DNA of 64,000 nt from the human T2T-CHM13v2.0 reference genome, Homo sapiens, in assembly GCF_009914755.1 (NCBI RefSeq), contig NC_060933.1, one strand, 5' to 3'. This document shows, in pieces, positions 14,001 through 46,300 of the stretch; positions within the stretch are counted from its first letter, which is position 1, and the number at the start of each line of letters is the position of its first letter. The translations under genes were made by a program, and so were the position numbers. The notes beneath the pieces are model-generated. The model searched no databases. It was not told the origin of the DNA and worked only from the letters and a program-made list of their open reading frames with translations.

Positions 14001-14200
14001 AATGGAATGGAATCATCCGTAATGGAATGGAAAGGAATGGAATGGAATGGAAAGGAATGGAATGGAATGGAATGGAATGGAATGGAATCAACTCGATTGC
14101 AATCGAATGGAATGGAATAGAATTAACCCGAATAGAATGGAATGGAATGGAATGGAACGGAACGGAATGGAATGGAATGGAATGGAATGGAATGGAATGG
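8050..14200 (+). repeat. Tandem duplication, period ~3.57-3.6 kb
   Basis: CAACTTGAAT 8449/12032 and 10271/13890, CGTTTGTAAT 9676/13240. Near-identical ORF translations 9329..9604 and 12893..13168. Confidence 0.8.
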
Positions 14201-23340: not shown

Positions 23341-26300
23341 AATGCAATGGAATGGAATCAACCCGAGTGCAATGGAATGGAGAGGAATGGAATGGAATGG
23401 AATGGAAACTACCCGAATGGAATAGAATGTAATGGAGTGTAAGGGAATTGAATAGAATCAATCCGAATGTAATGGAATGGAATGGAACGGAATGGAATGG
23501 AATGGAATGGAATGGAATGGAATGGAATGGAATGCAATGGAATGGAATCAACCCGAGTGCAATCGAATGGAATCGAATGGAATGGAATGCAATGGAATGG
23601 ATTCAACTTGAATGGAATGGAAAGAATGGAATCAACACGAGTAGAACGGCATGGATTGGAATGCAATGGAATTGATTCAACCCGAGTACAGGGGAATGGA
23701 AGGGAATGGAATGCAATGGAATGGAATCATCCGTAATGGAATGGAAAGGAATGGAATGGAATGGAATGGAATGGAATGGAATGGAATCAACACGATTGCA
23801 ATCGAATGGAATGGAATGGAATTAACCCGAATAGAATGGAATGGAATGGAATGGAACGGAACGGAATGGAATGGAATGGAATGGAATGGAATGGAACGGA
23901 ACCGAACGGAACGGAATGGAATGGAATGGAATGGAATGGAATGGAATGGAATGGAATCAACGCGAGTGCAGGGGAATGGAATGGAATGGAATGCAATGGA
24001 ATGGAATCTTCCGGAATGGAATGGAATGGAATGGAATGGAATGGAATGAAATGCAATGGATTCAACTCGATTGCAATGGAATGGAATAGAATGGAATGGA
24101 ATGGAATGGAATGGAATTAACCCGAATAGAATGGAATGGAATGGAACGGAATGGAACGGAATGGAACGGAATGGAATGGAATGGAATGGAATGGAATGGA
24201 ATGGTATGGAATGGAATAGAATGGTACGGAATAGAATGGAATGGAACGAATTGTAATGGAATGGAAGTGAATGGAATGGAATGGAATGGAATGGAATCAA
24301 CGCGAGTGCAGGGGAATGTAATGGAACGGAGTGCAATGGAATGGAATCATCCGGAATGGAATGGAATGGAATGGAATGGAATGGAATGGAATGGAATGCA
24401 AAGGAATGGAATCAACCCGAGTGGAATGGCATGGAATGGAATGCAATGGAATGGAATGGAATGGAATCAACTCGAGTGGAAAGGAATGGAATGGAATGGA
24501 AAGGAATGGAATGAAGTCAACTCGAGTGGAATGGAATGGAATGGAATGGATTGGAATGGATTGCAATGGAATGAAATGGAATGGAATGGAATCAATCATT
24601 CCGAGTGGAATGGAAGGGAATGTAATGGAGTGGAAAGAAGGGAATGGAATCAACCCGAGTGGAATGCAAGGCAATGGAATGGAATGGAAAGGAATGGAAT
24701 GGAATCAACTCGATTGCAATGGAATGGAATGGAATGGAATGGAATGGAATGGAATGGAATGGAATGGAATTAACCGGAATAGAATGGAATGGAATGGAAT
24801 GGAACGGAATTGAATGGAATGGAAGGGAATGGAATCAACACGAGTGCAGGGGAATGGAATGGAATGGAATGCAATGGAATGGAATCATCCGGAATGGAAT
24901 GGAGTGGAATGGAATCAACTCCATTGCAATGGAATGGAATGGAATGGAATGGAATAGAATGGAATGGAATTAACCCGAATAGAATGGAATGCAATAGAAT
25001 GGAATGCAACGGAACCGAATGGAGTGGAATGGAATGGAATGGAATCAACCCGAGTACAGGGGAATGGAATGGAATGGAATGCAATGGAATGGAGTCATCC
25101 GTAATGGGATGGAAAGGAATGGAATGGAATGGAATGGAATGGAATGGAATCAACTCGATGGCAATCGAATGGAATGGAATGGAATTAACCCGAATAGAAT
25201 GGAATGGAATGGAATGGAACGGAACGGAATGGAATGGAACGGAATGGAATGGAATGGAACGGAACGGAATGGAATGGAATGGAATGGAATGGAATCAACG
25301 CGAGTGCAGGGGAATGGAATGGAATGGAATGCAATCGAATGGAATCTTCCGGAATGGAATGCAATGGAACGCAATGGAATGAAAGGCAATGGATTCAACT
25401 CGATTGCAATGGAATGGAATAGAATGGAATGGAATGGAATGGAATGGAATGGAATTGAATGGAATGGAATACTTTAATACCGAATGGTATGGAAAGGAAT
25501 GGAATCAACACGAGTGGAAAGGAATGGAATGGAAAGGAATGGAATGGAATGGAATGGTACGGAATAGAATGGAATGGAACGAACTGGAATGGAATGGAAT
25601 GGAATGGAATGGAATGGAATGGAATGGAATGGAATCGTTCCGAGTGGAATAGGATGGAATGTATTCGAGTGGAATGGAAAGGAATGGAATCAACCAGAGT
25701 GGAATGGAAGGGAATGGAATGGAATGGAATCTAATAGAATGGAATCAACCCGAGTGGAATGGAATGGAAAGGACTGGAATGGAATGGAATGGAATGGAAT
25801 GGAATGGAATCAACTCGATTGTAATGGAATGGAATGGAATGGAATGGAATGGAATGGAATGGAATGGAATGGAATTAACCCGAATACAATGGAATGGAAT
25901 GGAATGGAACGGAATGGAGTGGAATGGAATGGAATCAACCCGAGTGCAGGGGAATGGAATGGAATGGAATGCAATGGAATGGAATCATCCGGAATGGAAT
26001 GGAATGGAATGGAATGCAAAGCAATGGAATCAACTCGATTGCAATGGAATGGAATGGAATGGAAAGGAATAGAATGGAATCAACCCGAGTGTAATGGAAT
26101 GGAAAGGACTGGAATGGAGTGGAATGGAATGGAATGGAAAGGAAAGGAATCAACTCGATTGTAATGGAATGGAATGGAATGGAATGGAATTAACCCGAAT
26201 AGAATGGAAAGGAATGGAATGGAACGGAATGGAATGGAATGGAATGGAATGGAATGGAATGGAATGGAATCAACCCGACTGCAGGGGAATGGAATGGAAT

Positions 26301-29300
26301 GGAATGGAATGGAATGGAATGGAATGGAATCATCCGGAACGGAATGGAATGGAATGGAATGGAATCAACTCGATTGCAATGGAATGGAATGGAATGGAAT
26401 GGAATCGAATGGAATGGAGTGGAATTAACAGGAATAGAATGGAATGGAATGGAATTGAACGGAATGAAATGGAAGGGAATGGAATGGAATGGAATGGAAT
26501 CAACCCGAGTGCAGGGGAATGGAATGGAATGGAATTCAATGGAATGGAATCATCCGGAATGGAATGGAATGGAATGGAATGCAATCAACCTGATGCAATG
26601 GAATGGAATGGAATGGAATGGAATGGAATGGAAACATCCCGAATGGAATGGAATGTAATGGAGTGTAAGGGAATTGAATAGAATCAATCCGAATGTAATA
26701 GAATGGAATGGAATGAAATGGAATGGAATGGAATGGAATGGAATGGAATCAACCCGAGTGCAATGGAATGGATTCGAATGGAATGGAATGGAATGGATTC
26801 AACAAGAATGGAATGGAAAGGAATGGAATCAAACCGAGTGTAATGGCATGGAATGGAACGGAATGGAATGGGATGGAATGGAATGGAATGCAATGGAATG
26901 GAATCAACCCGAGTGCAATGGAATGGAGAGGAATGGAATGGAATGGAATGGAAACTACCCGAATGGAATGGAATGTAATGGAGTGTAAGGGAATTGAATA
27001 GAATCAATCCGAATGTAATGGAATGGAATATAACGGAATGGAATGGAATGGAGTGGAATGGAATGGAATGGAATGGAATGCAATGGAATGGAATCAACCC
27101 GAGTGCAATCGAATGGAATCGAATGGAATGGAATGCAATGGAATGGATTCAACTTGAATGGAATGGAAAGAATGGAATCAACACGAGTGGAATGGCATGG
27201 ATTGGAATGGAATGGAATGGAATTAACCCGAGTACAGGGGAATGGAATGGAATGGAATGCAATGGAATGGAATCATCCGTAATGGAATGGAATGGAATGG
27301 AATGGAATGAAATGCAATGGATTCAACTCGATTGCAATGGAATGGAATAGAATGGAATGAAATGGAATGGAATGCAATTAATCCGAATAGAATGGAATGG
27401 AATGGAATGGAACGGAATGGAAAGGAATGGAATGGAATGGAATGCTATGCAATGGAATGGAATGGTACGGAATAGAATGGAATGGAACGAATTGTAATGG
27501 AATGGAATTGAATGGAATGGAATGGAATGGAATGGAATCAACGCGAGTGCAGGGGATTGTAATGGAACGGAATGCAATGGAATGGAATCATCCGGAATGG
27601 AATGGAATGGAATGGAATGGAATGGAATGGAATCAACCCGAGTGCAATGGAATGGAGTGGAATGGAATGGAATGGAATGGAACAACCCGAATGGAATGGA
27701 ATGTAATGGAGAGTAAGGGAGTTGAATAGAATCAATCCGAATGTAATGGAATGGAATGCAACGGAATGGAATGGAATGGAATGGAATGGAATGCAATGGA
27801 ATGGAATCAACCCGAGTACAATGGAATGGAATGGAATGGAATGGAATGGAATGGAATGGAATGGAATGATACGGAATAGAATGGAATGGAACGAAATGGA
27901 ATTGAATGGAAAGGAATGGAATGGAATGGAATGGAATCGTTCCGAGTGGAATAGGAGGGAAAGTATTCGAGTGGAATGGAAAGGAATGGAATCAACCAGA
28001 GTGGAATGGAAGGGAATGGAATGGAATGGAAACTAATAGAATGGAATCAACCCGAGTGGAATGGAATGGAAAGGACTGGAATGGAATGGAATGGAATGGA
28101 ATCAACTCGTTTGTAATGGAATGGAATGGAATGGAATGGAATGGAATGGAATGGAATTAACCCGAATACAATGGAAGGGAATGGAATGGAATGGAAACTA
28201 ATAGAATGGAATCAACCCGAGTGGAATGGAATGGAAAGGACTGGAATGGAATGGAATGGAATGGAATCAACTCGATTGTAATGGAATGGAATGGAATGGA
28301 ATGGAATGGAGTGGAATGGAATGGAATCAACCCGAGTGCAGGGGAATGGAATGGAATGGAATGCAATGGAATGGAATCATCCGAAATGGAATCGAATGGA
28401 ATGGAATGCAAAGCAATGGAATCAACTCGATTGCAATGGAATGGAATGGAATGGAAAGGAGTACATTGGAATCAACCCGAGTGGAATGGAATGGAAAGGA
28501 CTGGATTGGAGTGGAATGGAATGGAATGCAATGGAATGGAATGGAATGGAATCAACTTGATTGGAATGGAATGGAATGGAATGGAATGGAATGGAATAGA
28601 ATGGAATCAACCCGACTGCAGGGGAATGGAATGGAATGGAATGCAATGGAATGGATTCAACTTGAATGGAATGGAAAGAATGGAATCAACACGAGTGGAA
28701 TGGCATGGATTGGAATGGAATGGAATGGAATCAACCCGAATACAGGGGAATGGAATGGAATGGAATGCAATGGAATGGAATCATCCGTAATGGAATGGAA
28801 AGGAATGGAATGGAATGGAAAGGAATGCAATGGAATGGAATGGAATGGAATGGAATCAACTCGATTGCAATCGAATGGAATGGAATGGAATTAACCCGAA
28901 TAGAATGGAATGGAATGGAATGGAACGGAACGGAATGGAATGGAATGGAATGGAATGGAATGGAACGGAACGGAACGGAATGGAATGGAATGGAATGGAA
29001 TGGAATCAACGCGAGTGCAGGGGAATGGAATGGAATGGAATGCAATGGAATGGAATCTTCCGGAATGGAATGGAATGGAATGGAATGCAATGGAATGGAA
29101 TGGAATCCAATGGAATGGAATCAACCCGAGTTCAATGAAATGGAGAGGAATGGAATGGAATGGAATGGAAACTACCCGAATGGAATGGAATGTAATGGAG
29201 TGTAAAGGAATTGAATAGAATCAATCCGAATGTAATGGAATGGAATGGAACGGAATGGAATGGAATGGAATGGAATGGAATGGAATGGAATGCAATGGAA

Positions 29301-32300
29301 TGGAATCAACCCGAGTGCAATCGAATGGAATCGAATGGAATGGAATGCAATGGAATGGATTCAACTTGAATGGAATGGAAAGAATGGAATCAACACGAGT
29401 GGAATGACATGGATTGTAATGGAATGGAATGGAATCAACCCGAGTACAGGGGAATGGAATGGAATGGAATGCAATGAAATGGAATCATCCGTAATGGAAT
29501 GGAAAGGAATGGAATGGAATGGAATGGAATGGAATGGAATGGAATCAACTCGATTGCAATCGAATGGAATGGAATGGAATTAACCCGAATAGAATGGAAT
29601 GGAATGGAATGGAACGGAAGGGAATGGAATGGAATGGAACGGAATGGAACGGAAAGGAAGGGAATGGAATGGAATAGAATGGAATGGAATGGAATCAACG
29701 CGAGTGCAGGGGAATGGAATGGAATGGAATGCAATGGAATGGAATCTTCCGGAATGGAATGGAATGGAATGGAATGGAATGGAATGGAATGGAATCAACC
29801 CGAGTGCAATGGAATGGAGTGGAATGGAATGGAATGGAATGGAACAACCCGAATGGAATGGAAAGTAATGGAGAGTAAGGGAGTTGAATAGAATCAATCC
29901 GAATGTAATGGAATGGAATGGAACGGAATGGAATTGAATGGAATGGAATGGAATGCAATGGTATGGAATCAACCCGAGTGCAATGGAATGGAGAGGAATG
30001 GAATGGAATGGAATGGATACTACCCGAATGGAATGGAATGTAATGGAGTGTAAGGGAATTGAATAGAATCAATCCGAATGTAATGGAATGGAATGGAACG
30101 GAATGGAATGGAATGGAATCAACGCGAGTGCAGGGGAATGGAATGGAATGGAATGCAATGGAATGGAATCATCCGTAATGGAATGGAAAGGAATGGAATG
30201 GAATGGAATGGAATGGAATGGAATGGAATGGAATCAACTCGATTGCAATCGAATGGAATGGAATGGAATTAACCCGAATAGAATGGAATGGAATGGAATG
30301 GAACGGAACGGAATGGAATGGAATGGAATGGAATGGAACGGAATGGAATGGAATGGAATGGAATCAACGCGAGTGCAGGGGAATGGAATGGAATGGAATG
30401 TAATGGAATGGAAACTTCCGGAATGGAATGGAATGGAATGGAATGGAATGATATGCAATGGATTCTACTCGATTGCAATGGAATGGAATAGAATGGAATG
30501 AAATGGAATGGAATGCAATTAATCCGAATAGAATGGAATGGAATGGAATGGAATGGAACGGAATGGAACGGAATGGAATGGAATGGAATGGAATGGAATG
30601 GTATGGAATGGAATGGAATGGTACGGAATAGAATGGAATGGAACGAATTGTAATGGAATGGAATTGAATGGAATGGAATGGAATGGAATGGAATGGAATG
30701 GAATCAACGCGAGTGCAGGGGAATGTAATGGAACGGAATGCAATGGAATGGAATCATCCGGAATGGAATGGAATGGAATGGAATGGAATTGAATGGAATC
30801 AACCCGAGTGCAATGGAATGGAGTGGAATGGAATGGAATGGAATGGAACAACCCGAATGGAATGGAATGTAATGGAGAGTAAGGGAGTTGAATAGAATCA
30901 ATCCGAATGTAATGGAATGGAATGCAACGGAATGGAATGGAATGGAATAGAATGGAATGCAATGGAATGGAATCAACCCGAGTACAATGGAATGGAATGG
31001 AATGGAATGGAATGGAATGGAATGGAATGGAATGGAATGATACGGAATAGAATGGAATGGAACGAAATGGAATGGAATGGAAAGGAATGGAATGGAATGG
31101 AATGGAATCGTTCCGAGTGGAATAGGAGGGAAAGTATTCGAGTGGAATGGAAAGGAATGGAATCAACCAGAGTGGAATGGAAGGGAATGGAATGGAATGG
31201 AAACTAATAGAATGGAATCAACCCGAGTGGAATGGAATGGAAAGGACTGGAATGGAATGGAATGGAATGGAATCAACACGATTGTAATGGAATGGAATGG
31301 AATGGAATGGAATGGAATGGAATGGAATTAACCCGAATACAATGGAATGGAATGGAATGGAACGGAATGGAGTGGAATTTAATGGAATCAACCCAAGTGC
31401 AGGGGAATGGAATGGAATGGAATGCAATGGAATGGAATCATCCGGAATGGAATGGAATGGAATGGAATACAAAGCAATGGAATCAACTCGATTGCAATGG
31501 AATGGAATGGAATGGAAAGGAATACATTGGAATCAACCCGAGTGGAATGGAATGGAAAGGACTGGAATGGAGTGGAATGGAATGGAATGGAATCAACTCG
31601 ATTGGAATGGAATGGAATGGAATGGAATGGAATGGAATGGAATGGAATGGAATTAACCCGAATAGAATGGAATGGAATTAAATGGAAAGGAACGGAATGG
31701 AATGGAATGGAATGGAATGGAATGGAATCAACCCGACTGCAGGGGAATGGAATGGAATGGAATGCAATGGAATGGACTCAACTTGAATGGAATGGAAAGA
31801 ATGGAATCAACAAGAGTGGAATGGCATGGATTGCAATGGAATGGAATGGAATCAACCCGAGTACAGGGGAATGGAATGGAATGGAATGCAATGGAATGCA
31901 ATCATCCGTAATGGAATGGAAAGGAATGGGATGGAATGGAATGGAATGGAATAGAATGGAAAGGAATCAACTCGATTTCAATGGAATGGAATGGAATGGA
32001 ATTAACCCGAATAGAATGGAATGGAATGGAATGGAACGGAATGGAACGGAATGGAATGGAATGGAATGGAATGGAATGGAACGGAACGGAACGGAACGGA
32101 ATGGAATGGAATGGAATGGAATGGAATGGAATCAACGCGAGTGCAGGGGAATGGAATGTAATGGAATGCAATGGAATGGAATCTTCCGGAATGGAATGGA
32201 ATGGAATGGAATCAACCCGAGTGCAATGGAATGGAGTGGAATGGAATGGAATGGAATGGAACAACCCGAATGGAATGGAATGTAATGGAGAGTAAGGGAG

Positions 32301-34770
32301 TTGAATAGAATCGATCCGAATGTAATGGAATGGAATGCAACGGAATGGAATGGAATGGAATGGAATGGAATGGAATGGAATGGAATGCAATGGAATGGAA
32401 TCAACCCGAGTACAATGGAATGGAATGGAATGGAATGGAATGGAATGGAATCACCTCGATTTCAATGGAATGGAATGGAATAGAATGGAATGGAATTAAC
32501 ACGAATAGAATGGAAGGGAATGGAATGGAATGGAATGGAACAGAAAGGAATGGAATGGAATGGAATCAACCCAAGTGCAGGGGAATGGAATGGAATGGAA
32601 TTCAATGGAATGGAATCATCCGGAATGGAATGGAATGGAATGGAATGGAATGGAGTGGAATGGAATGGAATCAACCCGTGTGCAATGGAATGGAGAGGAA
32701 TGGAATGGAATGGAATGGAATGGAAACTACCCGAATGGAATGGAATGTAATGGAGTGTAAGGGAATTGATTAGAATGAATCCGAATGGAATGGAATGGAA
32801 TGGAAAGGAATGGAATGGAATGGAATGGAATGGAATAGAATGGAATGCAATGCCATGGAATCAACCCGAGTGCAATCGAATGGAATCGAATGGAATGGAA
32901 TACAATGGAATGGATTCAACATGAATGGAATGGAAAGAATGGAATCAACAGGAGTGGAATGGCATGGATTGGAATGGAATGGAATGGAATCAACCCGAGT
33001 ACAGGGGAATGGAATGGAATGGAATGCAATGGAATGGAATCATCCGTAATGGAATGGAAAGGAATGGAATGGAATGGAATGGAATGCAGTGGAATGGAAT
33101 GGAATCAACTCGATAGCAATCGAATGGAATGGAATGGAATTAACCCGAATAGAATCTACTGGAATGGAATGGAACGGAAAGGAACGGAATGGAATGGAAT
33201 GGAATGGAATGGAATGGAACGGAAAGGAATGGAATGGAATGGAATGGAATGGAATGGAATGGAATGGAATCAACGCGAGTGCAGGGGAATGGAATGGAAT
33301 GGAATGCAATGGAATGGAATCTTGCGGAATGGAATGGAATGGAATGGAATCAACCCGAGTGCAATGGAATGGAGTGGAATGGAATGGAATGGAATGGAAC
33401 AACCCGAATAGAATGGAATGTAATGGAGAGTAAGGGAGTTGAATAGAATCAATCCGAATGTAATGGAATGGAATGGAACGGAATGGAAATGAATGGAATG
33501 GAATGGAATGGAATGGAATGGAATCAACTCGATTGCAATCGAATGGAATGGAATGGAATTAACCCAAATAGAATGGAATGTTATGGAATGGAACGGAACG
33601 GAATGGAATGGAATGGAATGGAATGGAATGGAATGGAACGGAACGGAACGGAACGGAACGGAATGGAACGGAATGGAATGGAATGGAATGGAATCAATGC
33701 GAGTGCAGGGGAATGGAATGGAATGGAATGCAATGGAATGGAATCATCCGGAATGGAATGGAATGGAATGGAATGGAATGGAATGGAATGGAATGGAATA
33801 GAATGCAATGGAATGGAATCAACCCGAGTACAATGGAATGGAATGGAATGGAATGGAACGGATTGGAATGGAATGGAATGGAATGGAATGGAATGGAATG
33901 GAAAGAATGGAATCAACCCGAGTGGAATGGCATGGAATGGAATGCAAAGGAATGGAATGGAATGGAATCAACTCGAGTGGAAAGGAATGGAATGGAATGG
34001 AAAGGAATGGAATGAAGTCAACTCGAGTGGAATGGAATGGAATGGAATGGATTGGAATGGATTGCAATGGAATGAAATGGAATGGAATGGAATGGAATCA
34101 ATCATTGCGAGTGGAATGGAAGGGAATGTATTGGAGTGGAAAGAAGGGAATGGAATCAACCCGAGTGGAATGCAAGGCAACGGAATGGAATGGAAAGGAA
34201 TGGAATGGAATCAACTCGATTGCAATCGCATGGAATGGAATGGAATGGAATGGAAAGGAATGGAATGGAATGAAATGGGATGGAATGGAATGCAATGGAA
34301 TGGAATCAACCCGAGTGCAATCGAATGGAATCGAATGGAATGGAATGCAATGGAATGGATTCAACTTGAATGGAATGGAAAGAATGGAATCAACACGAGT
34401 GGAATGGCATGGATTGGAATGGAATGGAATGGAATCAACCCGAGTACAGGGGAATGGAATGGAATGGAATGCAATGGAATGGAATCATCCGTAATGGAAA
34501 GGAAAGGAATGGAATGGAATGGAGTGGAATGGAATGGAATAGAATCAACTCGATTGCAATCGAATGGAATGGAATGGAATTAACCCGAATAGAATGGAAT
34601 GGAATGGAATGGAACGGAACGCAACGGAACGGAATGGAATGGAATGGAATGGAATGGAATGGAACGGAAAGGAATGGAATGGAATGGAATGGAATGGAAT
34701 GGAATGGAATGGAATGGAATGGAATCAACGCGAGTGCAGGGGAATGGAATGTAATGGAATGTAATGGAAT

Positions 34771-34785
34771 GGAATCTTCCGGAAT
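34771..34785. promoter_or_regulatory. Perfect heat-shock element nearest the junction on the left
   Basis: gGAAtcTTCcgGAAt, about 380 bp from the strand switch. Confidence 0.55.
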
Positions 34786-35145
34786 GGAATGGAATGGAAT
34801 GGAATCAACCCGAGTGCAATGGAATGGAGTGGAATGGAATGGAATGGAATGGAACAACCTGAATGGAATCGAATGTAATGGAGAGTAAGGGAGTTGAATA
34901 GAATCAATCCGAATGTAATGGAATGGAATGGAACGGAATGGAATTGAATGGAATGGAATGGAATGCAATGGAATGGAATCAACCCGAGTGCAATGGAATG
35001 GAGAGGAGGGGAATGGAATGGAGTGGAAACTACCCGAATGGAATGGAATGTAATGGAGTGTAAGGGAATTGAATAGAATCAATCCGAATGTAATGGAATG
35101 GAATGGAACGGAATGGAATGGAATGGAATGGAATGGAAAGAAGGG

Positions 35146-35173
35146 AATGGAATCATCCCGAGTTGATTCCATT
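35146..35173. other. Strand-switch (inversion) junction within the satellite
   Basis: AATGGAATCA-TCCCGAGT-TGATTCCATT: GGAAT repeats end and ATTCC repeats begin with no non-satellite spacer. CGAGT (35159-35163) fits both orientations. Confidence 0.95.
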
Positions 35174-37329
35174 GCTTTGCATTCCGTTCCATTCCATTCC
35201 TTTTCATTGTATTCGGGTTAATTCCATTGCATTCCATTCCATTCCTTTCCATTCCATTCCATTCCATTACAATGGAGTTGATTCCATTCCATTCCATTCC
35301 ATTCCATTCCATTCCAGTCCTTTCCATTCCATTCCACTCGGGTTGATTCCATTCTATTAGTTTCCATTCCATTCCATTCCCTTCCATTGCACTCTGGTTG
35401 ATTCCATTCCTTTCCATTTCACTCGAATACATTCCCTCCTATTCCACTCGGAACGATTCCATTCCATTCCGTTCCATTCCATTCCATTCCATTCCATTCC
35501 ATTCCATTCCATTTCGTTCCATTCCATTCTATTCCGTAGCATTCCATTCCATTCCATTCCATTCCATTCGATTCCATTCCACTCGTGTTGAATACATTCC
35601 TTTCCATTCCATTCAGTTTGAAGGCATTCCATTCCATTCAATTCCATTCCATTCCATTCCATTCCATTCCATTCCATTCCATTCCATTCCATTCCATTGT
35701 ACTCGGGTTGATTCCATTCCATTGCATTCTATTCCATTCCATTCCATTTCATTCCATTCCATTCCATTCCATTCCATTCCGGATGATTCCATTCCATTGC
35801 ATTCCATTCCATTCCATTCCCCTGCACTCGGGTTGATTACATTCCATTCCCTTCCCTTCCATTCCTTTCCATTCCATTCCATTCCATTCTATTCGGGTGA
35901 ATTCCATTCCATTCCATTCCATTCCATTCCATTCCATTCCATTGCAATCGAGTTGATTCCATTACATTCCATTCCATTCCGTTCCGGATGATTCCATTCC
36001 ATTGCATTGCATTCCATTCCATTCCCCTGCAGTCGGTTTGATTCCATTCCATTCCATTCCATTCCATTCCATTCTATTCCATTCCGTTCCATTCCATTGC
36101 ATTCCATTCTATTCGGGTTAATTCCATTCCATTCCTTTCCATTCCATTCCAATCGAGTTAATTCCATTCCATTGCATTCCATTCCACTCCATTCCAGTCC
36201 TTTCCATTCCATTCCACTCGGGTTGATTCCATTCTATTCCTTTCCATTCCATTCCATTGCAATAGAGTTGATTCCATTGCATTGCATTCCATTCCATTCC
36301 ATTCCATTCCGGATGATTCCATTCCATTGCATTCCATTCCATTCCATTCCCCTGCACTCGGGTTGATTCCATTCCATTCCACTCCATTCCGTTCCATTGC
36401 ATTCCATTCCATTGTATTCGGGTTAATTCCATTCCATTCCATTACATTCCATTCCATTCCATTCCATTACAATCGAGTTGATTCCATTCCATTCCATTCC
36501 ATTCCATTCCATTCCATTCCTTTCCATTCCATTCCACTCGGGTTGATTCCAGTCTATTAGTTTTCATTCCATTCCATTCCCTTCCATTCCACTCTGGTTG
36601 ATTCCATTCCTTTCCATTCCACTCGAATACATTCCCTCCTATTCCCTCGGAACAATTCCATTCCATACCATTGCATTCTATTCCATTCCATTTCGTTCCA
36701 TTCCATTCTATTCCATTCCGTTCCGTTCCGTTCCATTCCATTCCATTTCATTCTATTCGGGTTAATTCCATTCCATTCCATTCGATTGCAATCGAGTTGA
36801 TTCCATTCCATTCTATTCCATTCCATTCCATTCCTTTCCATTCCATTACGGATGATTCCATTCCATTGCATTCCATTCCATTCCATTCCCCTGTACTCGG
36901 GTTGATTCCATTCCATTCCATTCCATTCAATTCCATTCCATTCCATTCCGTTCCGTTCCATTCCATTCCATTACAATCGAGTTGATTCCATTCCATTCCA
37001 TTCCATTCCAGTCCTTTCCATTCCATTCCACTCGGGTTGATTCCATTCTATTAGTTTCCATTCCATTCCATTCCCTTCCATTCCACTCTGGTTGATTCCA
37101 TTCCTTTCCATTCCACTCGAATACATTTCCTCCTATTCCACTCGGAACGATTCCATTCCATTCCATTCCATTCCATTCCATTCCATTCCATTTCGTTCCA
37201 TTCCATTCTATTCCGTATCATTCCATTCCATTCCACTCCACTCCATTCCATTCCATTGTACTCGGGTTGATTCCATTCCACTGCATTCCATTCCATTCCA
37301 TTGCATTCCATTCCGTTGCATTCCAATCC

Positions 37330-39180
37330 ATGCCCTTCCACTCGTGTTGATTCCATTCTTTCCATTCCATTCAAGTTGAATCCATTCCATTGCATTCCAT
37401 TCCATTCGATTCCATTTCGATTGCACTCGGGTTGATTCCATTCCATTGCATTCCATTCCATTCCATTCCATTCCATTCCATTCCATTCCGTTCCATTCCA
37501 TTCCATTACATTCGGATTGATTCTATTCAATTCCCTTACACTCCATTACATTCCATTCCATTCGGGTAGTTTCCATTCCATTCCATTCCATTCCTCTCCA
37601 TTCCATTGCACTCGGGTTGATTCCATTCCATTGCATTCCATTCCATTCCATTCAATTCCATTCCGTTCCATTCCATTCCATTACATTCGGATTGATTCTA
37701 TTCAACTCCCTTACTCTCCGTTACATTCCATTCCATTCGGGTTGTTCCATTCCATTCCATTCCATTCCACTCCATTCCATTGCACTCGGGTTTATTCCAT
37801 TCCATTCCATTCCATTCCATTCCATTCCATTCCATTCCATTCCTGAAGATTCCATTCCATTGCATTCCATTCCATTCCATTCCCCTGCACTCGCGTTGAT
37901 TCCATTGCATTCCATTCCTTTCCATTCCGTTCCATTCCATTCCTTTCCGTTCCGTTCCATTCCATTCCATTCCATTCCGTTCCGTTCCGTTCCGTTCCAT
38001 TCCATTCCATTCCATTCTATTCAGGTTAATTCCATTCCATTCCATTCGACTGCAATCGAGTTGATTCCATTCCATTCCATTCCATTCCATTCCATTCCAT
38101 TCCATTCCATTCCATTGCTTTCCATTCCATTACGGATGATTCCATTCCATTGCATTCCATTCCATTCCATTCCCCTGTACTCGGGTTGATTCCATTCCAT
38201 TCCATTCCATTCCAATCCATGCCATTCCACTCGTGTTGATTCCACTCTTTCCATTCCATTCAAGTTGAATCCATTCCATTGCATTCCATTCCATTCGATT
38301 CCATTCGATTGCACTCAGGTTGATTCCATTCCATTGCATTCCATTCCATTCAATTCCATTCCATTCCATTCCATTCCGTTCCATTCCATTCCATTACATT
38401 CGGATTGATTCTATTCAATTCCCTTACACTCCATTACATTCCATTCCATTCGGGAAGTTTCCATTCCATTCCATTCCATTCCTCTCCATTCCATTGCACT
38501 CGGGTTGATTCCATTCCATTGCATTCCATTCCATTCCATTCAATTCCATTCCGTTCCATTCCATTCCATTACATTCGGATTGATTCTATTCAACTCCCTT
38601 ACTCTCCGTTACATTCCATTCCATTCGGGTTGTTCCATTCCATTCCATTCCATTCCACTCCATTCCATTGCACTCGGGTTTATTCCATTCCATTCCATTC
38701 CATTCCATTCCATTCCATTCCATTCCATTCCTGAAGATTCCATTCCATTGCATTCCATTCCATTCCATTCCCCTGCACTCGCGTTGATTCCATTGCATTC
38801 CATTCCATTCCATTCCGTTCCATTCCATTCCTTTCCGTTCCGTTCCATTCCATTCCATTCCATTCCATTCCGTTCCGTTCCGTTCCGTTCCATTCCATTC
38901 CATTCCATTCTATTCAGGTTAATTCCATTCCATTCCATTCGACTGCAATCGAGTTGATTCCATTCCATTCCATTCCATTCCATTCCATTCCATTCCATTG
39001 CTTTCCATTCCATTACGGATGTTTCCATTCCATTGCATTCCATTCCATTCCATTCCCCTGTACTCGGGTTGATTCCATTCCATTCCATTCCAATCCATGC
39101 CTTTCCACTCGTGTTGACTCCACTCTTTCCATTCCATTCAAGTTGAATCCATTCCATTGCATTCCATTCCATTCCATTCC
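37330..39180 (-). repeat. Tandem duplication, period 888 bp
   Basis: Shared rare variants CCTGAAG 37842/38730, TTCAGGTTAA, CGACTGCAAT and CCACTCTTT. Identical ORFs 37517..37846 and 38405..38734. Confidence 0.88.
37839..37853. promoter_or_regulatory. Perfect heat-shock element nearest the junction on the right
   Basis: aTTCctGAAgaTTCc matches nTTCnnGAAnnTTCn. Confidence 0.55.
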
Positions 39181-42100
39181 CCTGCAGTCGGGTTGATTCC
39201 ATTCCATTCAATTCCATTCCATTCCATTCCATTCCATTCCGTTCCGTTCCGTTCCATTCCATTCCATTCCATTCCATTCTATTCGGGTTAATTCCATTCC
39301 ATTCCATTCCATTCCATTCCATTCCATTCCAATCGAGTTGATTCCATTCCATTTCATTCCATTCCATTCCACTCCATTCCTTTCCATTCCAATCCATTCC
39401 ATTGTATTCGGGTTAATTCCATTCCATTCCATTCCATTCCATCACAATCGAGTTGGTTCCATTCCATTCCATACCATTCCATTCCATTCCATTCCATTCC
39501 ATTCCGGATGATTCCATTCCATTACATTCTCTTCCATTATATTCCCCTGCACTCGGGTTGATTCCATTCCATTCCATTCCATTCGATTCCATTCCATTCC
39601 AATTCTTTCCATTCCATTCTATTCCGTACCATTCCATTCCATTCCATACCATTCCATTCCATTCCATTCCATTCCATTCCATTCCATTCCGTTCCGTTCC
39701 GTTCCATTCCATTCCACTCCATTTTATTCGGGTTAATTGCATTCCATTCCATTCGATTCCATTCCATTCTATTCCATTCCATTGCAATCGAGTTGAATCC
39801 ATTGCATTCCATTCCATTCCATTCCGGAAGATTCCATTCCATTGCATTCCATTCCATTCCATTCCCCTGCACTCGCTTTGATTCCATTCCATTCCATTCC
39901 ATTCCGTTCCGTTCCGTTCCGTTCCGTTCCGTTCCATTCCATTCCATTCTATTCGGTTTAATTCCATTCCATTCCATTGGATTGCAATCGAGTTGATTCC
40001 ATTCCATTCCATTCCATTCCATTCCATTCCATTCCATTCCTTTCCATTCCATTACGGATGATTCCATTCCACTGCATTACATTCCATTCCATTCCCTTGT
40101 ACTCGGGTTGATTCCATTCCATTCCATTCCATTCCATTCTATTCCATTCCATTCCATTCCGGAAGATTCCATTCCATTGCATTCCCCTGCACTCACGTTG
40201 ATTCCATTCCATTCCATTCCATTCCATTCCATTCCATTCCGTTCCGTTCCGTTCCGTTCCATTCCATTCCATTCCATTCTATTCGGGTTAATTCCATTCC
40301 ATTCTATTCGATTGCCATCGAGTTGATTCCATTCCATTCCATTCCATTCCATTCCATTCCATTCCATTCCATTCCTTTCCATTCCATTACGGATCACTCC
40401 ATTCCGTTGCATTCCATTCCATTCCATTCCCCTGTACTCGGGTTGATTCCATTCCATTCCATTCCACTCCATTCGGTTCCGTTGCATTCCATTCTATTGC
40501 ATTCCATTCTATTCGGGTTAATTCCATTCCATTCTATTCCATTCCATTCCATTGCATTCCATTGCAATGGAGTTGATTCCATTCCATTCCATTCCATTCC
40601 GGATGATTCCATTCCATTGCATTCCATTCCATTCCATTCCCCTGCACTCGTGTTGATTCCATTCCCTTCCATTCCATTCCATTCCATTCCATTCTATTCC
40701 GATTAATTCCATTCCATTCCATTCCATTCCATTCCATTCCATTGCAATCGAGTTGATTCCATTCCATTCCTTTCCATTCCATTCCATTGCCTTGCATTAC
40801 ACTCGGGTAGATTCCATTCCCTTCTTTCCACTCCATTACATTCCCTTCCATTCCACTCGGAATGATTGATTCCATTCCATTCCATTCCATTTCATTCCAT
40901 TGCAATCCATTCCAATCCATTCCATTCCATTCCATTCCACTCGAGATGACTTCATTCCATTCCTTTCTATTCCATTCCATTCCATTCCTTTCCACTCGAG
41001 TTGATTCCATTCCATTCCAATCCATTGCATTCCATTCCATGCCATTCCACTCGGGTTGATTCCATTCCTTTGCATTCCATTCCATTCCATTCCATTGCAT
41101 TCCATTCCATTCCAATCCGTTGCATTCCATTCCATTACATTCGGATTGATTCTATTGAACTCCCTTACTCTCCATTACATTCCATTCCATTCGGGTTGTT
41201 CCATTCCATTCCATTCCATTCCACTCCATTCCATTGCACTCGGGTTGATTCCATTCCATTCCATTCCATTCCATGCCATTCCGGATGATTCCATTCCATT
41301 GCATTCCGTTCCATTACATTCCCCTGCACTCGGGTTGATACCATTCCATTCCATTCCATTCCATTCCGGATGATTCCATTCCATTGCATTCCATTCCATT
41401 CCATTCCCATGCACTCGGGTTGATTACATTCCATTTCCTTCCCTTCCATTCCTTTCCATTCCATTCCATTCCATTCTATTCGGGTGTATTCCATTCCATT
41501 CCATTCCATTCCACTCCATTCCATTCCATTCCATTCTATTCCATTCCATTGGAATCGAGTTGATTCCATTCTATTCCATTCCATTCCGTTCCAGATGATT
41601 CCATTCCATTCCATTCCATTCCATTCCATTCCATTCCATTCCATTCCCCTGCACTCGGGTTGATTCCATTCCATTCCATTCCATTCCATTCCATTCCATT
41701 CCGTTCCGTTCCATTCCATTCCACTCCATTCTATTCGGGTTAATTCCATTCCATTCCATTCCATTCCATTCCATTCCAATCGAGTTGATTCCATTCCATT
41801 CCATTCCATTCCATTCCATTCCACTCCATTTCAGTGCTTTCCTTTCCATTACACTCGGGTTGATTCCATTCTATTCCTTTAAACTCCTTTCCATTCCATT
41901 GCAATCGAGTTAACTCCATTGCTTTGCATTCCATTCCATTCCATTCCATTCCATTCCGGATGATTCCTTTCCATTGCATTCCATTCCATTCCATTCCCCT
42001 GCACTCGGGTTGATTCCATTCCATTCCACTCCATTCCGTTCCATTCCATTCCATTCCATTTTATTCGGGTTAATTCCATTCCATTCCATTCCATTCCATT

Positions 42101-43389
42101 CCATTCCATTCCATTACAATCGAGTTTATTCCATTCCATTCCATTCCATTCCATTCCATTCCAGTCTTTTCCATTCCATTCCACTCGGGTTGATTCCATT
42201 CTATTAGTTTCCATTCCATTCCATTCCCTTCCATTCCACTCTGGTTGATTGCATTCCTTTCCATTCCACTCGAATACATTCCCTCCTATTCCACTCGGAA
42301 CGATTCCATTCCATTCTATTCCATTCCATTCCATTCCATTCCATTCCAGTTCGTTCCATTCCATTCTATTACGTACCATTCCATTCCATTCCATTCCTTT
42401 CCATTCCATTGCTTTCCACTCGTGTTGATTCCATTCCTTTCCATTCCATTCGGTTTGAAGGCATTCCATTCCAGTCCATTCCATTACATTACATTCCATT
42501 GCGTTCCGTTCCGTTCCATTCAATTCCATTCCATTCCATTCCATTCCATTCCATTCCGTTCCGTTGCATTCCATTCCATTCCATTCTATTCGGGTTAATT
42601 CCATTCGATTCCATTCGATTGCCATCGAGTTGATTCCATTCCATTCCATTCCATTCCATTCCATTCCATTCCATTCCTTTCCATTCCATTACGGATGACT
42701 CCATTCCATTGCATTCCATTCCATTCCATTCCCCTGTACTCGGGTTGATTCCATTCCATTCCATTCCACTCCATTCGGTTCCGTTGCATTCCATTCTATT
42801 GCATTCCATTCTATTCGGGTTAATTCCATTCCATTCTATTCCATTCCATTCCATTCCATTCCATTGCAATGGAGTTGATTCCATTCCATTCCATTCCATT
42901 CCGGATGATTCCATTCCATTGCATTCCATTCCATTCCATTCCCCTGCACTCGTGTTCAGTCCATTCCGTTCCATTCCATTCCATTCCATTCTATTCCGGT
43001 TAATTCCATTCCATTCCATTCCATTCCATTCCGGATGATTCCATTCCATTGCATTCCGTTCCATTACATTCCCCTGCACTCGCGTTGATTCCATTCCATT
43101 CCATTCCATTCCATTCAATTCCATTCCATTACAATTCTTTCCATTCCATTCTATTCCGTACCATTCCATTCCATTCCATACCATTCCATTCCATTCCATT
43201 CCGTTCCATTCCATTCCATTCCATTCCATTCTATTCGGGTTAATTCCATTCCATTCCATTCGATTGCAATCTTGTTGATTCCATTCCATTCCATTCCATT
43301 CCATTCCTTTCCATTCCATTACGGATGATTCCATTCCATTGCATTCCATTCCATTCCATTCCCCTGTACTCGGGTTGATTCCATTCCAC

Positions 43390-46300
43390 TGCATTCCATT
43401 ACATTCCATTCCATTCCGTTCCATTTCATTCTATTCTGGTTAATTCCATTCCATTCCATTCCACTCCATTCCAGTCCTTTCCATTCCATTCCACTCGGGT
43501 TGATTCCATTCTATTCCTTTTAATTCCATTCCATTCCATTGCAATCGAGTGGATTCCATTCGAGTTGAATCCATTCCATTCCATTCCATTCCATTCCATT
43601 GCACACGGGTTCATTCCATTCCATTCCATTCCATTCCATTCCATTCCATTCTATTCCATTTCATTCCATTCCATTCTATTCCGTACCATTCCATTCCATC
43701 CCATTCCATTCCGTTCCATTCCATGCCATTACACTCGGGTTGATTCCATTCCTTTCCATTCCATTCTTGTTGAATCCATTCCATTCCATTCCATTCCATT
43801 CCATTCGAATCCATTCCATTGCACTCGGGTTGATTCCATTCCATTCCATTCCATTCCATTTCATTCCATTCCATTCCATTACATTCGGATTGATTCTATT
43901 CAATTCCCTTACACTCCATTACATTCCATTCCATTCGGGATGTTTCCATTCCATTCCATTCCATTCCACTCCATTCCATTGCATCAGGTTGATTGCATTC
44001 CATTCCATTCCATTCCATTCCGGATGATTCCATTCCATTGCATTCCATTCCATTCCATTCCCCAGCACTCGAATAGATTCCATTCCATTCCATTCCATTC
44101 CATTCCATTCCATTCCGTTCCATTCCATTCCATTCCATTCTATTCCGGTTAATTCCATTCCATTCCATTCGATTCCATTCCATTCCATTCCATTCCATTG
44201 CAATCGAGTTGATTCCATTCCATTCCATTCCATTCCATTCCGGATGATTCCATTCCATTCCATTCCATTCCGTTCCGGATGATTCCATTCCATTCCATTC
44301 CATTCCATTCCATTCCATTCCATTCCCCTGCAGTCGGGTTGATTCCATTCCATTCCATTCAATTCCATTCCATTCCATTCCATTCCGTTCAATTCCATTC
44401 CATTCCATTCTATTCGGGTTAATTCCATTCCATTCCATTCCATTCCATTCTATTCGGGTTAATTCCATTCCATTCCATTCCATTCCATTCCATTCTATTC
44501 CATTCCATTGCAATCGAGTTGAATCCATTGCATTTCATTCCATTCCATTCCATTCCATTCCATTCCATTCCGGAAGTTTCCATTCCATTGCATTCCATTC
44601 CATTCCATTCCCCTGCACTCGCGTTGATTCCATTCCATTCCATTCCATTCCATTCCATTCCTTTCCGTTCCGTTCCTTTCCATTCCATTCCATTCCATTC
44701 CATTCCATTCCGTTCCGTTCCATTCCATTCCATTCCATTCTATTCGGGTTAATTCCATTCCATTCCATTCGATTGCAATCGTGTTGATTCCATTCCATTC
44801 CATTCCATTCCATTCCATTCCATTCCATTCCATTCCTTTCCATTCCATTACGGATGATTCCATTCCATTGAATTCCATTCCATTCCATTCCCCTGCACTC
44901 GGTTTGATTCCATTCCATTCCATTCCATTACATTCCATTCCATTCCGTTCCATTTCATTCTATTCGGGTTAATTCCATTCCATTCCATTCCACTCCATTC
45001 CAGTCCTTTCCATTCCATTCCACTCGGGTTGATTCCATTCTATTCCTTTTAATTCCATTCCATTCCATTGCAATCGAGTGGATTCCATTCGAGTTGAATC
45101 CATTCCATTCCATTCCATTCCATTCCATTGCACACGGGTTCATTCCATTCCATTCCATTCCATTCCATTCCATTCCATTCCATTCCATTCCATTCTATTC
45201 CGTACCATTCCATTCCATCCCATTCCATTCCGTTCCGTTCCATGCCATTACACTCGGGTTGATTCCATTCCTTTCCATTCCATTCTTGTTGAATCCATTC
45301 CATTCCATTTCATTCCATTCCATTCCATTACATTCGGATTGATTCTATTCAATTCCCTTACACTCCATTACATTCCATTCCATTCGGGATGTTTCCATTC
45401 CATTCCATTCCATTCCACTCCATTGCATTGCATCAGGTTGATTGCATTCCATTCCATTCCATTCCATTCCGGATGATTCCATTCCATTGCATTCCATTCC
45501 ATTCCATTCCCCAGCACTCAAATTGATTCCATTCCATTCCATTCCATTCCATTCCATTCCATTCCGTTCCATTCCATTCCATTCCATTCTATTCCGGTTA
45601 ATTCCATTCCATTCCATTCGATTCCATTCCATTCCATTCCATTCCATTGCAATCGAGTTGATTCCATTCCATTCCATTCCATTCCGTTCCGGATGATTCC
45701 ATTCCATTCCATTCCATTCCATTCCATTCCATTCCCCTGCAGTCGGGTTGATTCCATTCCATTCCATTCCATTCCATTCCATTCCATTCCATTCCGTTCA
45801 ATTACATTCCATTCCATTCTATTCGGGTTAATTCCATTCCATTCCATTCCATTCCATTCTATTCGGCTTAATTCCATTCCATTCCATTCCATTCCATTCC
45901 ATTCCATTCTATTCCATTCCATTGCAATCGAGTTGAATCCATTGCATTTCATTCCATTCCATTCCATTCCATTCCATTCCATTCCGGAAGATTCCATTCC
46001 ATTGCATTCCATTCCATTCCATTCCCCTGCACGCGCCTTGATTCCATTCCATTCCATTCCATTCCATTCCATTCCATTCCTTTCCGTTCCGTTCCGTTCC
46101 GTTCCATTCCATTCCATTCCATTCCATTCCATTCCGTTCCGTTCCATTCCATTCCATTCCATTCTATTCGGGTTAATTCCATTCCATTCCATTCGATTGC
46201 AATCGTGTTGATTCCATTCCATTCCATTCCATTCCATTCCATTCCTTTCTATTCCATTACGGATGATTCCATTCCATTGCATTCCATTCCATTCCATTCC

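What the first reader, a model, noticed from the sequence alone, without database searches (positions are those of the whole stretch)
35146..35173. Inversion junction with 5-bp microhomology and hairpin
Seen: the left word CA(A>T)CCCGAGT and the right word CGAGTTG (reverse complement of CAACTCG) overlap at CGAGT, 35159-35163. The join forms a 10-bp stem (35146-35155 with 35164-35173) and an 8-nt loop. Pure GGAAT has almost no homology to its own reverse complement, so these CGA-containing words offer the rare cross-strand microhomology. Established: T2T work reported many strand switches in chr9 HSat3. Inference: microhomology-mediated template switching or end joining, predicting that other breakpoints also fall on such words.
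Basis: partly seen in the sequence, partly recalled or inferred. Interest (0 to 1): 0.8.

Follow-up and report, generated by a model that had tools for sequence, protein, structure and literature searches.

The report
Amplified strand-switch junction in 9q12 satellite
The spot is a real point where the chromosome 9 satellite-3 repeat flips strand, made once by joining two opposite-strand repeat units across five shared bases and then copied about fifty times as the array grew.

Summary
The window has one strand switch. The 10-bp stem, the 8-nt loop and CGAGT at 35159-35163 are all there.

Rebuilding the two parental repeat units from intact copies gives left ...GGAATCAACCCGAGT|GGAATGC and right ...CCATTGCAATCGAGT|TGATTCC. 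Random plus/minus joins reach 5 bp or more in about 0.15% of trials.

The hairpin is a by-product: 45% of random head-to-head joins form a stem of 10 bp or more.

This is not a local event. The junction is 1 of 53 near-identical copies, all on chr9 between 51 and 75 Mb, 34 forward and 19 reverse. The flanks of 7 sampled copies cluster together. The A>T is private to this copy and its twin in CHM13's recent multi-megabase 9qh+ duplication.

Five junction families account for 201 of at least 231 strand switches in the array.

In 5 of 11 independent families the crossover touches a CpG word (null 17%, P about 0.03).

End joining and template switching cannot be told apart. No reciprocal junction and no local fold-back were found.

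The parts
1..35158 (+). Left arm: HSat3 (subfamily B5) array in GGAAT orientation
   Evidence: GC skew about +0.6. TRF consensus GGAAT up to 35153. 25 HSat3B5 marker 24-mers on the minus strand, all at or before 35058.
35131..35155 (+). Left-parent signature GAATGGAAAGAAGGGAATGGAATCA, just 5' of the word
   Evidence: Coordinates checked. With 1 mismatch or fewer in a 314-kb set it is followed by CCCGAGTGGAATGCAAGGCAAT[G/T/C] 16 times and by the junction 6 times, counting only the 6 commonest continuations listed. Genome-wide there are 1,233 read-through matches.
35154..35163 (+). Left word CATCCCGAGT, a variant of the HSat3 10-mer CAACCCGAGT, with a private A>T at 35156
   Evidence: 51 of 53 family members have A at this site. 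T occurs only here and in the twin at chr9:54509816.
35159..35163 (.). CGAGT: the 5 bases shared by both inferred parents, so the crossover interval
   Evidence: Left parent is ...CAACCCGAGT|GGAATGC and right parent is ...GCAATCGAGT|TGATTCC. The bases on either side of CGAGT differ between the two parents.
35159..35170 (-). Retained part of the right-parent word CGAGTTGATTCC (reverse complement of GGAATCAACTCG)
   Evidence: 96 of the first 100 listed genome matches of the right-flank signature have CGAGT directly 5' of TGATTCC. In the 314-kb set, TCCATTGCAATCGAGTTGATTCC occurs 31 times among the 6 commonest continuations listed.
35171..35196 (-). Right-parent signature ATTGCTTTGCATTCCGTTCCATTCCA
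35146..35173 (.). Short palindrome: 10-bp stem and 8-nt loop in this copy, 12-bp stem and 4-nt loop (CCGA) in the ancestral form
   Evidence: DNA fold -9.2 kcal/mol here and -12.7 kcal/mol for the consensus copy in L011. Expected at 45% of random head-to-head joins.
35164..64000 (-). Right arm: the same HSat3B5 array in ATTCC orientation
   Evidence: GC skew about -0.6. TRF consensus ATTCC from 35166. 15 marker 24-mers on the plus strand, all at or after 37541.
34141..34173 (+). Nearest intact left-parent subunit, AAGAAGGGAATGGAATCAACCCGAGTGGAATGC
   Evidence: Exact match. Five more are in the window: 24635, 40794 (2 mismatches), 52341, 55155, 59844.
31464..31500 (-). Nearest intact right-parent subunit on the left arm, CCATTGCAATCGAGTTGATTCCATTGCTTTG[C/T]ATTCC read on the minus strand
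   Evidence: 1 mismatch. The window holds 13 such subunits at 2 mismatches or fewer, 8 of them exact.

Best explanation
Positions 35146-35173 hold a true head-to-head strand-switch junction in the 9q12 HSat3 (B5) array.

It was formed once. A plus-strand repeat unit broken just after its word CAACCCGAGT was joined to a minus-strand unit of the type CCATTGCAATCGAGT|TGATTCCATTGCTTTGC. The two ends or templates were aligned on the five shared bases CGAGT. This is a microhomology-mediated join, either polymerase-theta-type end joining of two breaks or a replicative template switch.

The junction, with at least about 0.3-1 kb of flank on each side, was then copied as the array expanded by segmental duplication. 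It now stands 53 times on chr9. About a third of the copies are flipped as a unit, most simply by recombination between the inverted arms that flank each junction.

The window's copy picked up an A>T in the word. It was then duplicated once more in CHM13's recent multi-megabase 9qh+ duplication.

The hairpin follows from abutting GGAAT repeats to ATTCC repeats and needs no role.

Shown: the junction, the two parents, the 5-bp overlap, its rarity by chance, the 53 copies and their common descent.
Inferred: the enzymatic pathway, the flip mechanism and the order of events.
For: 1. Junction and single switch.

2. Parents.
- The 22-nt right-flank signature preceded by CCATT has 4,099 genome matches. 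96 of the first 100 listed read ...CGAGT|TGATTCC.
- The left signature has 1,233 read-through matches. 52 of the first 100 listed read CAACCCGAGTGGAATGC.
- The same parents appear in a 314-kb local set.
- The window holds 6 intact left-type and 13 intact right-type subunits.

3. Chance. Microhomology of 5 bp or more occurs in 0.14-0.15% of random joins. The chance that at least one of 11 families reaches 5 bp is about 0.015.

4. Across 11 independent junction families, 5 have 2 bp or more against a null of 13.9% (P = 0.012).

5. One event, copied.
- The 40-mer search at 3 mismatches or fewer gives 53 hits, all on chr9, 36 of them exact.
- Five other copies from 51 to 75 Mb are 95-99% identical to this one within 300 bp of the junction.
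- Over 400-bp right flanks, the 7 sampled junction copies form a clade that excludes all 39 intact parents (support 0.857). Mean junction-to-junction identity is 95.5%, and the best junction-to-parent identity is 90.9%.
- Over the left flanks, the clade holds the 7 junction copies plus 1 intact parent about 1 kb from one of them (support 1.0).
- Junction-to-neighbour spacings repeat: 12,681 bp three times and 44,424 bp twice.

6. Twin copy. The exact 22-mer occurs twice in the genome and the 3-kb flanks are 99.8% identical. This fits the 'recent multi-megabase HSat3 duplication' of CHM13 (PMC9186530, passages read).
Against: - No read-level check of the assembly was possible.
- The pathway is not resolved.
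  - The reciprocal tail-to-tail junction predicted for a balanced two-break inversion has 0 genome matches (exact 14+14-nt pattern with a gap of 0-14).
  - A local fold-back is also absent. The reverse complement of the right arm matches the left 4.5 kb at only 75-85% in the listed alignments of all 6 copies tested.
- Parents are inferred from present-day paralogs, not observed.
  - 500-bp BLAST paralogs first pointed to a CTCGGGTTG right parent, with only 2 bp of overlap.
  - The preference for the CGAGT parent rests on the 22-26 nt next to the join.
- Only 7 of the 53 copies were examined beyond 40 bp.
- One intact left-type unit sits inside the junction clade.
- Beyond about 1-1.5 kb the multiple alignment of copies drops to 55-90%. 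The size of the originally copied block is therefore unknown.
Confidence: 0.75

Rival explanations
1. Recurrent hotspot. The same two word types recombine again and again, so the 53 junctions are independent events and not copies of one.
For: Both parent units are very abundant (1,233 and 4,099 signature matches). CGAGT is a rare cross-strand match that could channel repeated events. Intact left-type units can be as much as 98.5% identical to a junction's left flank. Homology among copies decays beyond about 1-1.5 kb.
Against: The right flanks of 7 copies spread over 24 Mb form a clade that excludes all 39 intact right-type units. They are 95.5% alike, against at most 90.9% to any intact unit. 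36 of the 53 copies are identical over 40 nt, including non-consensus flank letters. Distances to neighbouring junctions repeat exactly.
Confidence: 0.08
2. Blunt (classical) end joining or another homology-independent join, with the 5-bp overlap a coincidence.
For: 3 of the 11 junction families in the same array show 0 bp of overlap (F4, F6, F8), one of them with 2-4 nt of filler, and 3 more show about 1-2 bp (F2, F3, F5). Homology-independent joining therefore also acts here.
Against: An overlap of 5 bp or more is expected in 0.14-0.15% of random joins, and in about 1.5% for the best of 11. Overlaps of 2 bp or more are enriched across families (5 of 11 against 13.9%, P = 0.012).
Confidence: 0.1
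3. Fold-back (hairpin-primed) inverted duplication. A resected end folded on the short palindrome and copied its own strand, so the hairpin is the cause of the junction.
For: The ancestral join is a 12-bp stem with a 4-nt loop, -12.7 kcal/mol. No reciprocal junction was found.
Against: The arms are not mirror images. Beyond the 12 bp that any GGAAT/ATTCC abutment gives, the two sides are different subunit types. The reverse complement of the right 1.2 kb matches the left 4.5 kb at only 75-85% in the listed alignments of 6 of 6 copies. No mirror diagonal was found across the 64-kb window. Stems of 12 bp or more arise in 33% of random joins.
Confidence: 0.04
4. Assembly artefact: a chimeric join in T2T-CHM13.
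For: No reads could be inspected here. The array contains a near-identical multi-megabase duplication that was hard to assemble (PMC9186530, passages).
Against: The same junction occurs at 53 sites with diverged flanks and in both copies of the duplication, which share a private substitution. Independent assemblies are reported to hold hundreds of switches (10.64898/2026.07.22.740206, passages) and about 129 per haplotype (10.64898/2026.09.03.749043, passages) in this array.
Confidence: 0.02

Closest known systems
Inversion breakpoints (strand switches) of the chr9 HSat3B5 array reported for T2T-CHM13
   Same: This is one of them. The Altemose et al. preprint (10.1101/2021.07.12.452052, section 7 read) says the chr9 HSat3B5 array and the beta-satellite arrays 'contain over 200 inversion breakpoints'. 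My pattern catalogue gives at least 231 on chr9.
   Different: The texts I read give counts and maps, not junction sequences. Added here: the base-level anatomy, the parents, the 5-bp overlap, and the finding that five junction sequences make up 201 of at least 231 switches. Their supplements were not seen.
Microhomology-mediated end joining (polymerase theta) and microhomology-mediated template switching (FoSTeS/MMBIR) junctions of human structural variants (recalled knowledge)
   Same: A novel adjacency in inverted orientation, a short overlap (5 bp) shared by both parents, no long homology, and no large insertion.
   Different: It sits inside a megabase satellite, where both parents are repeat units present in thousands of copies. 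No templated insertion or multi-step complexity is seen. The pathway cannot be assigned.
Fold-back inversions and palindromic inverted duplications (recalled knowledge)
   Same: A head-to-head join with a short hairpin-capable centre.
   Different: The arms are not mirror copies. The defining feature was tested and not met.
Classical satellite III structure: (GGAAT)n interspersed with the 10-mer CAACCCGA[G/A]T (recalled from the 1980s satellite III literature)
   Same: The 'words' at the join are this 10-mer and its CAACTCGATTGCAATCG variant. GGAATCAACCCGAGT occurs 95 times among 275 word matches on the left arm.
   Different: Nothing new about the words themselves. New is that the crossover uses their CGAGT core.

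Membership tests
HSat3 subfamily B5 (9q12 array) | Pentamer GGAAT/ATTCC array with interspersed CAACCCGA[G/A]T-type words | tested here: met
   TRF consensus GGAAT and ATTCC, 73% matches. 275 word matches on the left arm, 95 of them GGAATCAACCCGAGT.
HSat3 subfamily B5 (9q12 array) | Subfamily-specific 24-mer listed for HSat3B5 in PMC4022460 (table passage) | tested here: met
   40 exact matches in the window, against 0 in 100 shuffles. Its strand flips at the junction.
Microhomology-mediated junction (MMEJ or template switch) | Short sequence (about 2-20 bp) present at the break in both parents and once in the product | tested here: met
   CGAGT is shared by the left parent ...CAACCCGAGT|GG and the right parent ...CAATCGAGT|TG and occurs once at 35159-35163. 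The null chance of 5 bp or more is 0.14-0.15%.
Microhomology-mediated junction (MMEJ or template switch) | No extended homology between the joined partners, which excludes NAHR at formation | tested here: met
   The bases next to CGAGT differ on both sides. Plus and minus arms share runs of 8 bp or more in under 0.02% of random alignments.
Microhomology-mediated junction (MMEJ or template switch) | Pathway-specific marks: templated insertions or serial switches for MMBIR, or dependence on polymerase theta for MMEJ | not testable with these tools
   No insertion at this join. Enzyme dependence needs experiments.
Balanced two-break inversion | A reciprocal tail-to-tail junction built from the other halves of the same two parents | tested here: not met
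   The predicted pattern has 0 matches in the genome. None of the tail-to-tail families T1, T2 or T3 has those flanks. The reciprocal could have been lost, so this is weak.
Fold-back inverted duplication / palindrome | Arms that are reverse-complement copies of each other outward from the join | tested here: not met
   75-85% identity only in the listed alignments, at scattered offsets, in 6 of 6 copies. No mirror diagonal in the window.
NAHR-mediated inversion | Breakpoints inside long inverted homologous repeats, leaving no novel junction sequence | tested here: not met
   The join is a novel chimera of two different subunit types. NAHR remains the likeliest cause of the later flips (34 forward, 19 reverse), but that was not tested.

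The most novel reading that the evidence does not exclude
The 'hundreds of inversions' in the 9q12 HSat3 block are not hundreds of events. About a dozen founding rearrangements were copied with the array as it grew, and five of them give at least 87% of all strand switches in CHM13. Most were made at 2-5 bp overlaps that often touch the CpG core of the satellite's 10-mer words.

Junction sequences are then clonal markers. They can be used to reconstruct how 9qh expanded and why switch number tracks array length across people. At each junction they also set up convergent (head-to-head) or divergent (tail-to-tail) arrangements of the strand-specific satellite III transcription units.
Probability: 0.6. 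Interest if true: 0.65.

Novelty: new member of a known kind. Interest (0 to 1): 0.5.

Why it matters
Strand switches in the chr9 satellite are already on record, but only as counts.

- A 2026 preprint (10.64898/2026.07.22.740206, passages) reports that switch number correlates with array length (r = 0.90). It reads the switches as 'stochastic byproducts' of expansion.
- The sequences here suggest a simpler cause. A few old junctions are carried along and multiplied when blocks of the array duplicate.
- This turns junction families into lineage markers for the most size-variable heterochromatin block in the human genome (9qh).
- It gives short, specific probes (about 40-mers) that can be counted in any long-read or even short-read data set.
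- It shows at base level that short overlaps, often at the CpG words, guided the founding joins.
- From recalled knowledge, 9q12 satellite III is transcribed strand-specifically under heat stress. The switch map therefore also decides where transcription converges or diverges.

Tried and rejected
1. Parents from 500-bp BLAST paralogs. These gave a right parent CTCGGGTTG and only 2 bp (GT) of overlap inside a 6-of-8 quasi-palindrome. Rejected: the exact right-parent units lie 72-108 bp from those anchors, so the alignments were one sub-repeat out of register. The 22-26 nt next to the join identify a different unit.

2. Megablast of the whole left arm against the right arm timed out. It was replaced by k-mer chaining, which found no mirror structure.

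3. A permissive signature scan (4 mismatches or fewer) matched nearly every unit and its output was cut. It was redone with 0-3 mismatches.

4. Reciprocity of the T1 (tail-to-tail) and F7 (head-to-head) families. Both break a minus-strand word at CGG|GTT with a GG overlap. Co-located parental hits were only 77-84% (minus parent) and 78-94% (plus parent, offset by 4). This is unresolved and not claimed.

5. 'F9' turned out to be F7 read on the other strand, so 11 families are counted, not 12.

6. A first version of the flank phylogeny script mis-flagged junction copies and crashed. It was fixed.

The bioRxiv version was read instead.

8. A CpG-proximity test with fixed distance cut-offs gave P from 0.004 to 0.63 depending on the cut-off. 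It was replaced by a simulation that uses the same 'crossover interval touches a CpG' rule for data and null.

Full report
**What is there**

The window is HSat3 throughout.
- TRF gives GGAAT up to 35153 and ATTCC from 35166.
- GC skew is +0.59 to +0.73 in every 1-kb bin up to 35 kb and -0.58 to -0.66 beyond 36 kb.
- A count of GGAAT against ATTCC in 200-bp windows changes sign once, near 35.1 kb.
- The HSat3B5 marker 24-mer printed in PMC4022460 (passage) occurs 40 times exactly. 25 hits are on the minus strand, all at or before 35058, and 15 are on the plus strand, all at or after 37541.

So the window holds one head-to-head strand switch in the B5 subfamily array.

The stem is AATGGAATCA (35146-35155) against TGATTCCATT (35164-35173), the loop is TCCCGAGT, and CGAGT lies at 35159-35163.

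**Which sequences were joined**

My first attempt used the best 500-bp BLAST paralogs of each flank. It suggested that both parents carried the same 10-mer in opposite orientation (CAACCCGAGT against ACTCGGGTTG), with only GT shared. That was wrong. Those alignments were one sub-repeat (72-108 bp) out of register with the true unit.

Using the 22-26 nt directly next to the join as signatures gives a clear answer.
- Left signature (GAATGGAAAGAAGGGAATGGAATCA). In a 314-kb set of window plus fetched loci it is followed by CCCGAGTGGAATGCAAGGCAAT[G/T/C] 16 times, among the six commonest continuations listed, and by the junction 6 times.
- Right signature. It is preceded by TCCATTGCAATCGAGTTGATTCC 31 times.
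- Genome-wide, the right signature with an upstream CCATT anchor has 4,099 matches. 96 of the first 100 listed carry CGAGT directly before TGATTCC.
- Genome-wide, the left signature has 1,233 read-through matches. 52 of the first 100 listed read CAACCCGAGTGGAATGC.
- The window itself holds 6 intact left-type and 13 intact right-type units. The nearest left-type unit is at 34141-34173.

The parents are therefore ...GGAATCAACCCGAGT|GGAATGCAAGG... and ...CCATTGCAATCGAGT|TGATTCCATTGCTTTGC.... They share exactly CGAGT. The bases before it (CC against AT) and after it (G against T) differ.

**Is it more than chance?**

I joined random positions of plus-oriented window sequence to random positions of minus-oriented sequence.
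- Overlap is 0 bp in 64-65% of joins, 2 bp or more in 13.9%, 3 bp or more in 2.5%, and 5 bp or more in 0.14-0.15%.
- Allowing for 11 junction families examined, the chance that at least one reaches 5 bp is about 1.5%.
- The hairpin is different. 45% of 20,000 random head-to-head joins have a perfect stem of 10 bp or more with a loop of 12 nt or less, and 33% have 12 bp or more. Any GGAAT run abutted to an ATTCC run pairs with itself.
- The DNA fold energies (-9.2 kcal/mol here, -12.7 kcal/mol for the consensus copy) beat shuffles of the same 41 nt. But that control destroys the repeat and is not the relevant null.

**It is one of 53 copies**

The 3-kb flanks of the two are 99.8% identical. [quoted passage not shown]

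With A in place of the private T, a 40-mer across the join has 53 matches at 3 mismatches or fewer.
- All are on chr9 between 51.07 and 75.68 Mb.
- 34 are forward and 19 reverse.
- 36 are exact, 16 have one mismatch and 1 has two.

I fetched five further copies (51.07, 57.2, 63.4, 69.3 and 75.7 Mb).
- Each sits at a plus-to-minus switch.
- Each is 95-99% identical to the window's copy within 300 bp on both sides. Identity stays high to roughly 1 kb, after which the multiple alignment degrades.
- Over 400-bp right flanks, the 7 sampled junction copies form a clade that excludes all 39 intact right-type units (support 0.857). Mean identity is 95.5% among junction copies, and at most 90.9% to any intact unit.
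- Over the left flanks, the clade holds the 7 copies plus one intact unit that lies about 1 kb from one of them (support 1.0).

Copies of one event, not repeated events, is therefore the better reading. Only 7 of the 53 were examined in this way.

The reverse-oriented copies carry both flanks flipped together. Recombination between the inverted arms that flank every such junction would do this without creating a new junction sequence. That step is inferred.

**The rest of the array**

Pattern searches for (GGAAT)2...(ATTCC)2 and the converse showed that the same few junction strings recur. Specific searches gave these counts:

| Family | Type | Copies |
|---|---|---|
| F1 | head-to-head | 53 |
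| F2 | head-to-head | 30 |
| F7 | head-to-head | 22 |
| T1 | tail-to-tail | 85 |
| T2 | tail-to-tail | 11 sites |

- With seven minor types, 211 junctions are catalogued.
- Head-to-head and tail-to-tail must alternate along a chromosome. They fail to do so at 20 places, so at least 20 more exist, for a total of at least 231.
- The five large families are 201 of these, or 87%.
- The total fits 'over 200 inversion breakpoints' (10.1101/2021.07.12.452052, section 7 read).
- The window's junction has T1 44.4 kb upstream (chr9:63292717) and T2 56.7 kb downstream (63393818).

Caveats: membership of a family as a true strand switch was checked only at the loci I fetched. The search tool states that its counts are lower bounds.

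I rebuilt the parents of 11 independent families. The overlaps were read by eye from the listed parents and are least certain for F2, F3, F5 and T2.

| Family | Overlap |
|---|---|
| F1 | 5 bp (CGAGT) |
| T2 | 3-5 bp (GGA or ACGGA) |
| F7 | 2 bp (CC) |
| T1 | 2 bp (GG) |
| T3 | 2 bp (AT) |
| F3 | 1-2 bp |
| F2 | about 1 bp |
| F5 | about 1 bp |
| F4 | 0 bp |
| F6 | 0 bp |
| F8 | 0 bp, with 2-4 nt of filler |

- An overlap of 2 bp or more in 5 of 11 families, against a null of 13.9%, gives P = 0.012.
- In 5 of 11 families (F1, F5, F7, T1, T2) the crossover interval touches a CpG of a word in at least one parent. The null under the same rule is 17.4%, P = 0.029.
- The other six lie in plain monomers or a few bases from a word.
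- Only 27% of the shared strings of 5 bp or more in the null joins contain CG.

So the words are a favoured source of cross-strand overlap, not the only one. The prediction is partly borne out on a small sample.

**Mechanism**

The join has the marks of a microhomology-mediated event: inverted adjacency, a 5-bp overlap, no longer homology and no filler. I could not separate end joining from template switching.
- The reciprocal junction expected from a balanced inversion, made of the other halves of the two parents, has no match in the genome.
- None of the tail-to-tail families has those flanks.
- This leans towards a one-sided event, but the reciprocal could simply have been lost.
- A local fold-back is excluded as far as it can be. 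The reverse complement of the right 1.2 kb matches the left 4.5 kb at only 75-85% in the listed alignments of all six copies, and no mirror diagonal exists across the window.

**What is in print**

Full-text searches for HSat3 with chromosome 9, inversion and strand, with microhomology, for HSat3B5, and for 'strand switch' with HSat3 found the following.
- The Altemose et al. preprint (section 7 read).
- An APG preprint. [quoted passage not shown]
- An HPRC preprint. It reports about 129 orientation switches per haplotype on chr9 and notes that many inversion boundaries, in the chromosomes it analysed, coincide with palindromic repeats (10.64898/2026.09.03.749043, passages).

None of the passages I read gives junction sequences, junction families or overlaps for this array. 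Their supplements were not seen, and subscription-only papers are outside the library.

**Verdict**

The hairpin is incidental. The junction is an old event multiplied with the array, not a local rearrangement.

As a strand switch in this array it is a known kind of feature. The added value is the base-level anatomy and the finding that a handful of junction sequences explain most of the array's 'inversions'.

Noticed in passing
chr9:52.1-58.7 Mb versus 60.8-69.3 Mb (outside the window): Junction copies with shared private variants pair up at offsets of 8.71-8.83 Mb and then 10.59-10.63 Mb. This traces CHM13's multi-megabase duplication. The jump in offset places about 1.75 Mb of extra sequence in the second copy (about 63.40-65.15 Mb). 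It begins only about 30-65 kb beyond the right end of the window.
   Followed up: partly
chr9:63292717 (T1, locus L004) and chr9:70855040 / 60219090 (F7, loci L015, L024): The commonest tail-to-tail family (T1, 85 copies) and the head-to-head family F7 (22 copies) both break a minus-strand word at CGG|GTT. Both have a GG overlap against a GGAATGG|AAT partner, as reciprocal products of one inversion would. The co-location test of parental flanks was ambiguous.
   Followed up: partly
chr9:66645596 and 56042128 (F4, locus L007 near position 4991): A blunt head-to-head join, AATGG|CCATT. It makes a perfect 10-bp palindrome with no spacer and no overlap between the inferred parents.
   Followed up: partly
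chr7:58.72-59.04 Mb, chr1:127.68 Mb, chr14:4.70 Mb, chr17:21.96 Mb: Other HSat2/3 arrays also hold strand-switch strings. Examples are GGAATCAATTCC and its reverse complement at four chr7 sites in mirrored order, GGAATTCC on chr14, and a word-adjacent join CAAACCGAGT|GGATTCC on chr17.
   Followed up: no
window 1-64000: There is no regular higher-order period. Self-comparison gives many weak periods (for example 2,072, 3,185 and 18,432 bp on the left arm; 5,672 and 888 bp on the right arm). Both arms are mosaics of 1-3 kb blocks that are 85-96% alike.
   Followed up: partly
chr9:52339065-52351746, 61030701-61043382, 61082267-61094948: A T1-to-F1 segment of exactly 12,681 bp occurs three times. 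Two of them are 51.6 kb apart, which marks a very recent local tandem duplication inside the second copy of the large duplication.
   Followed up: no
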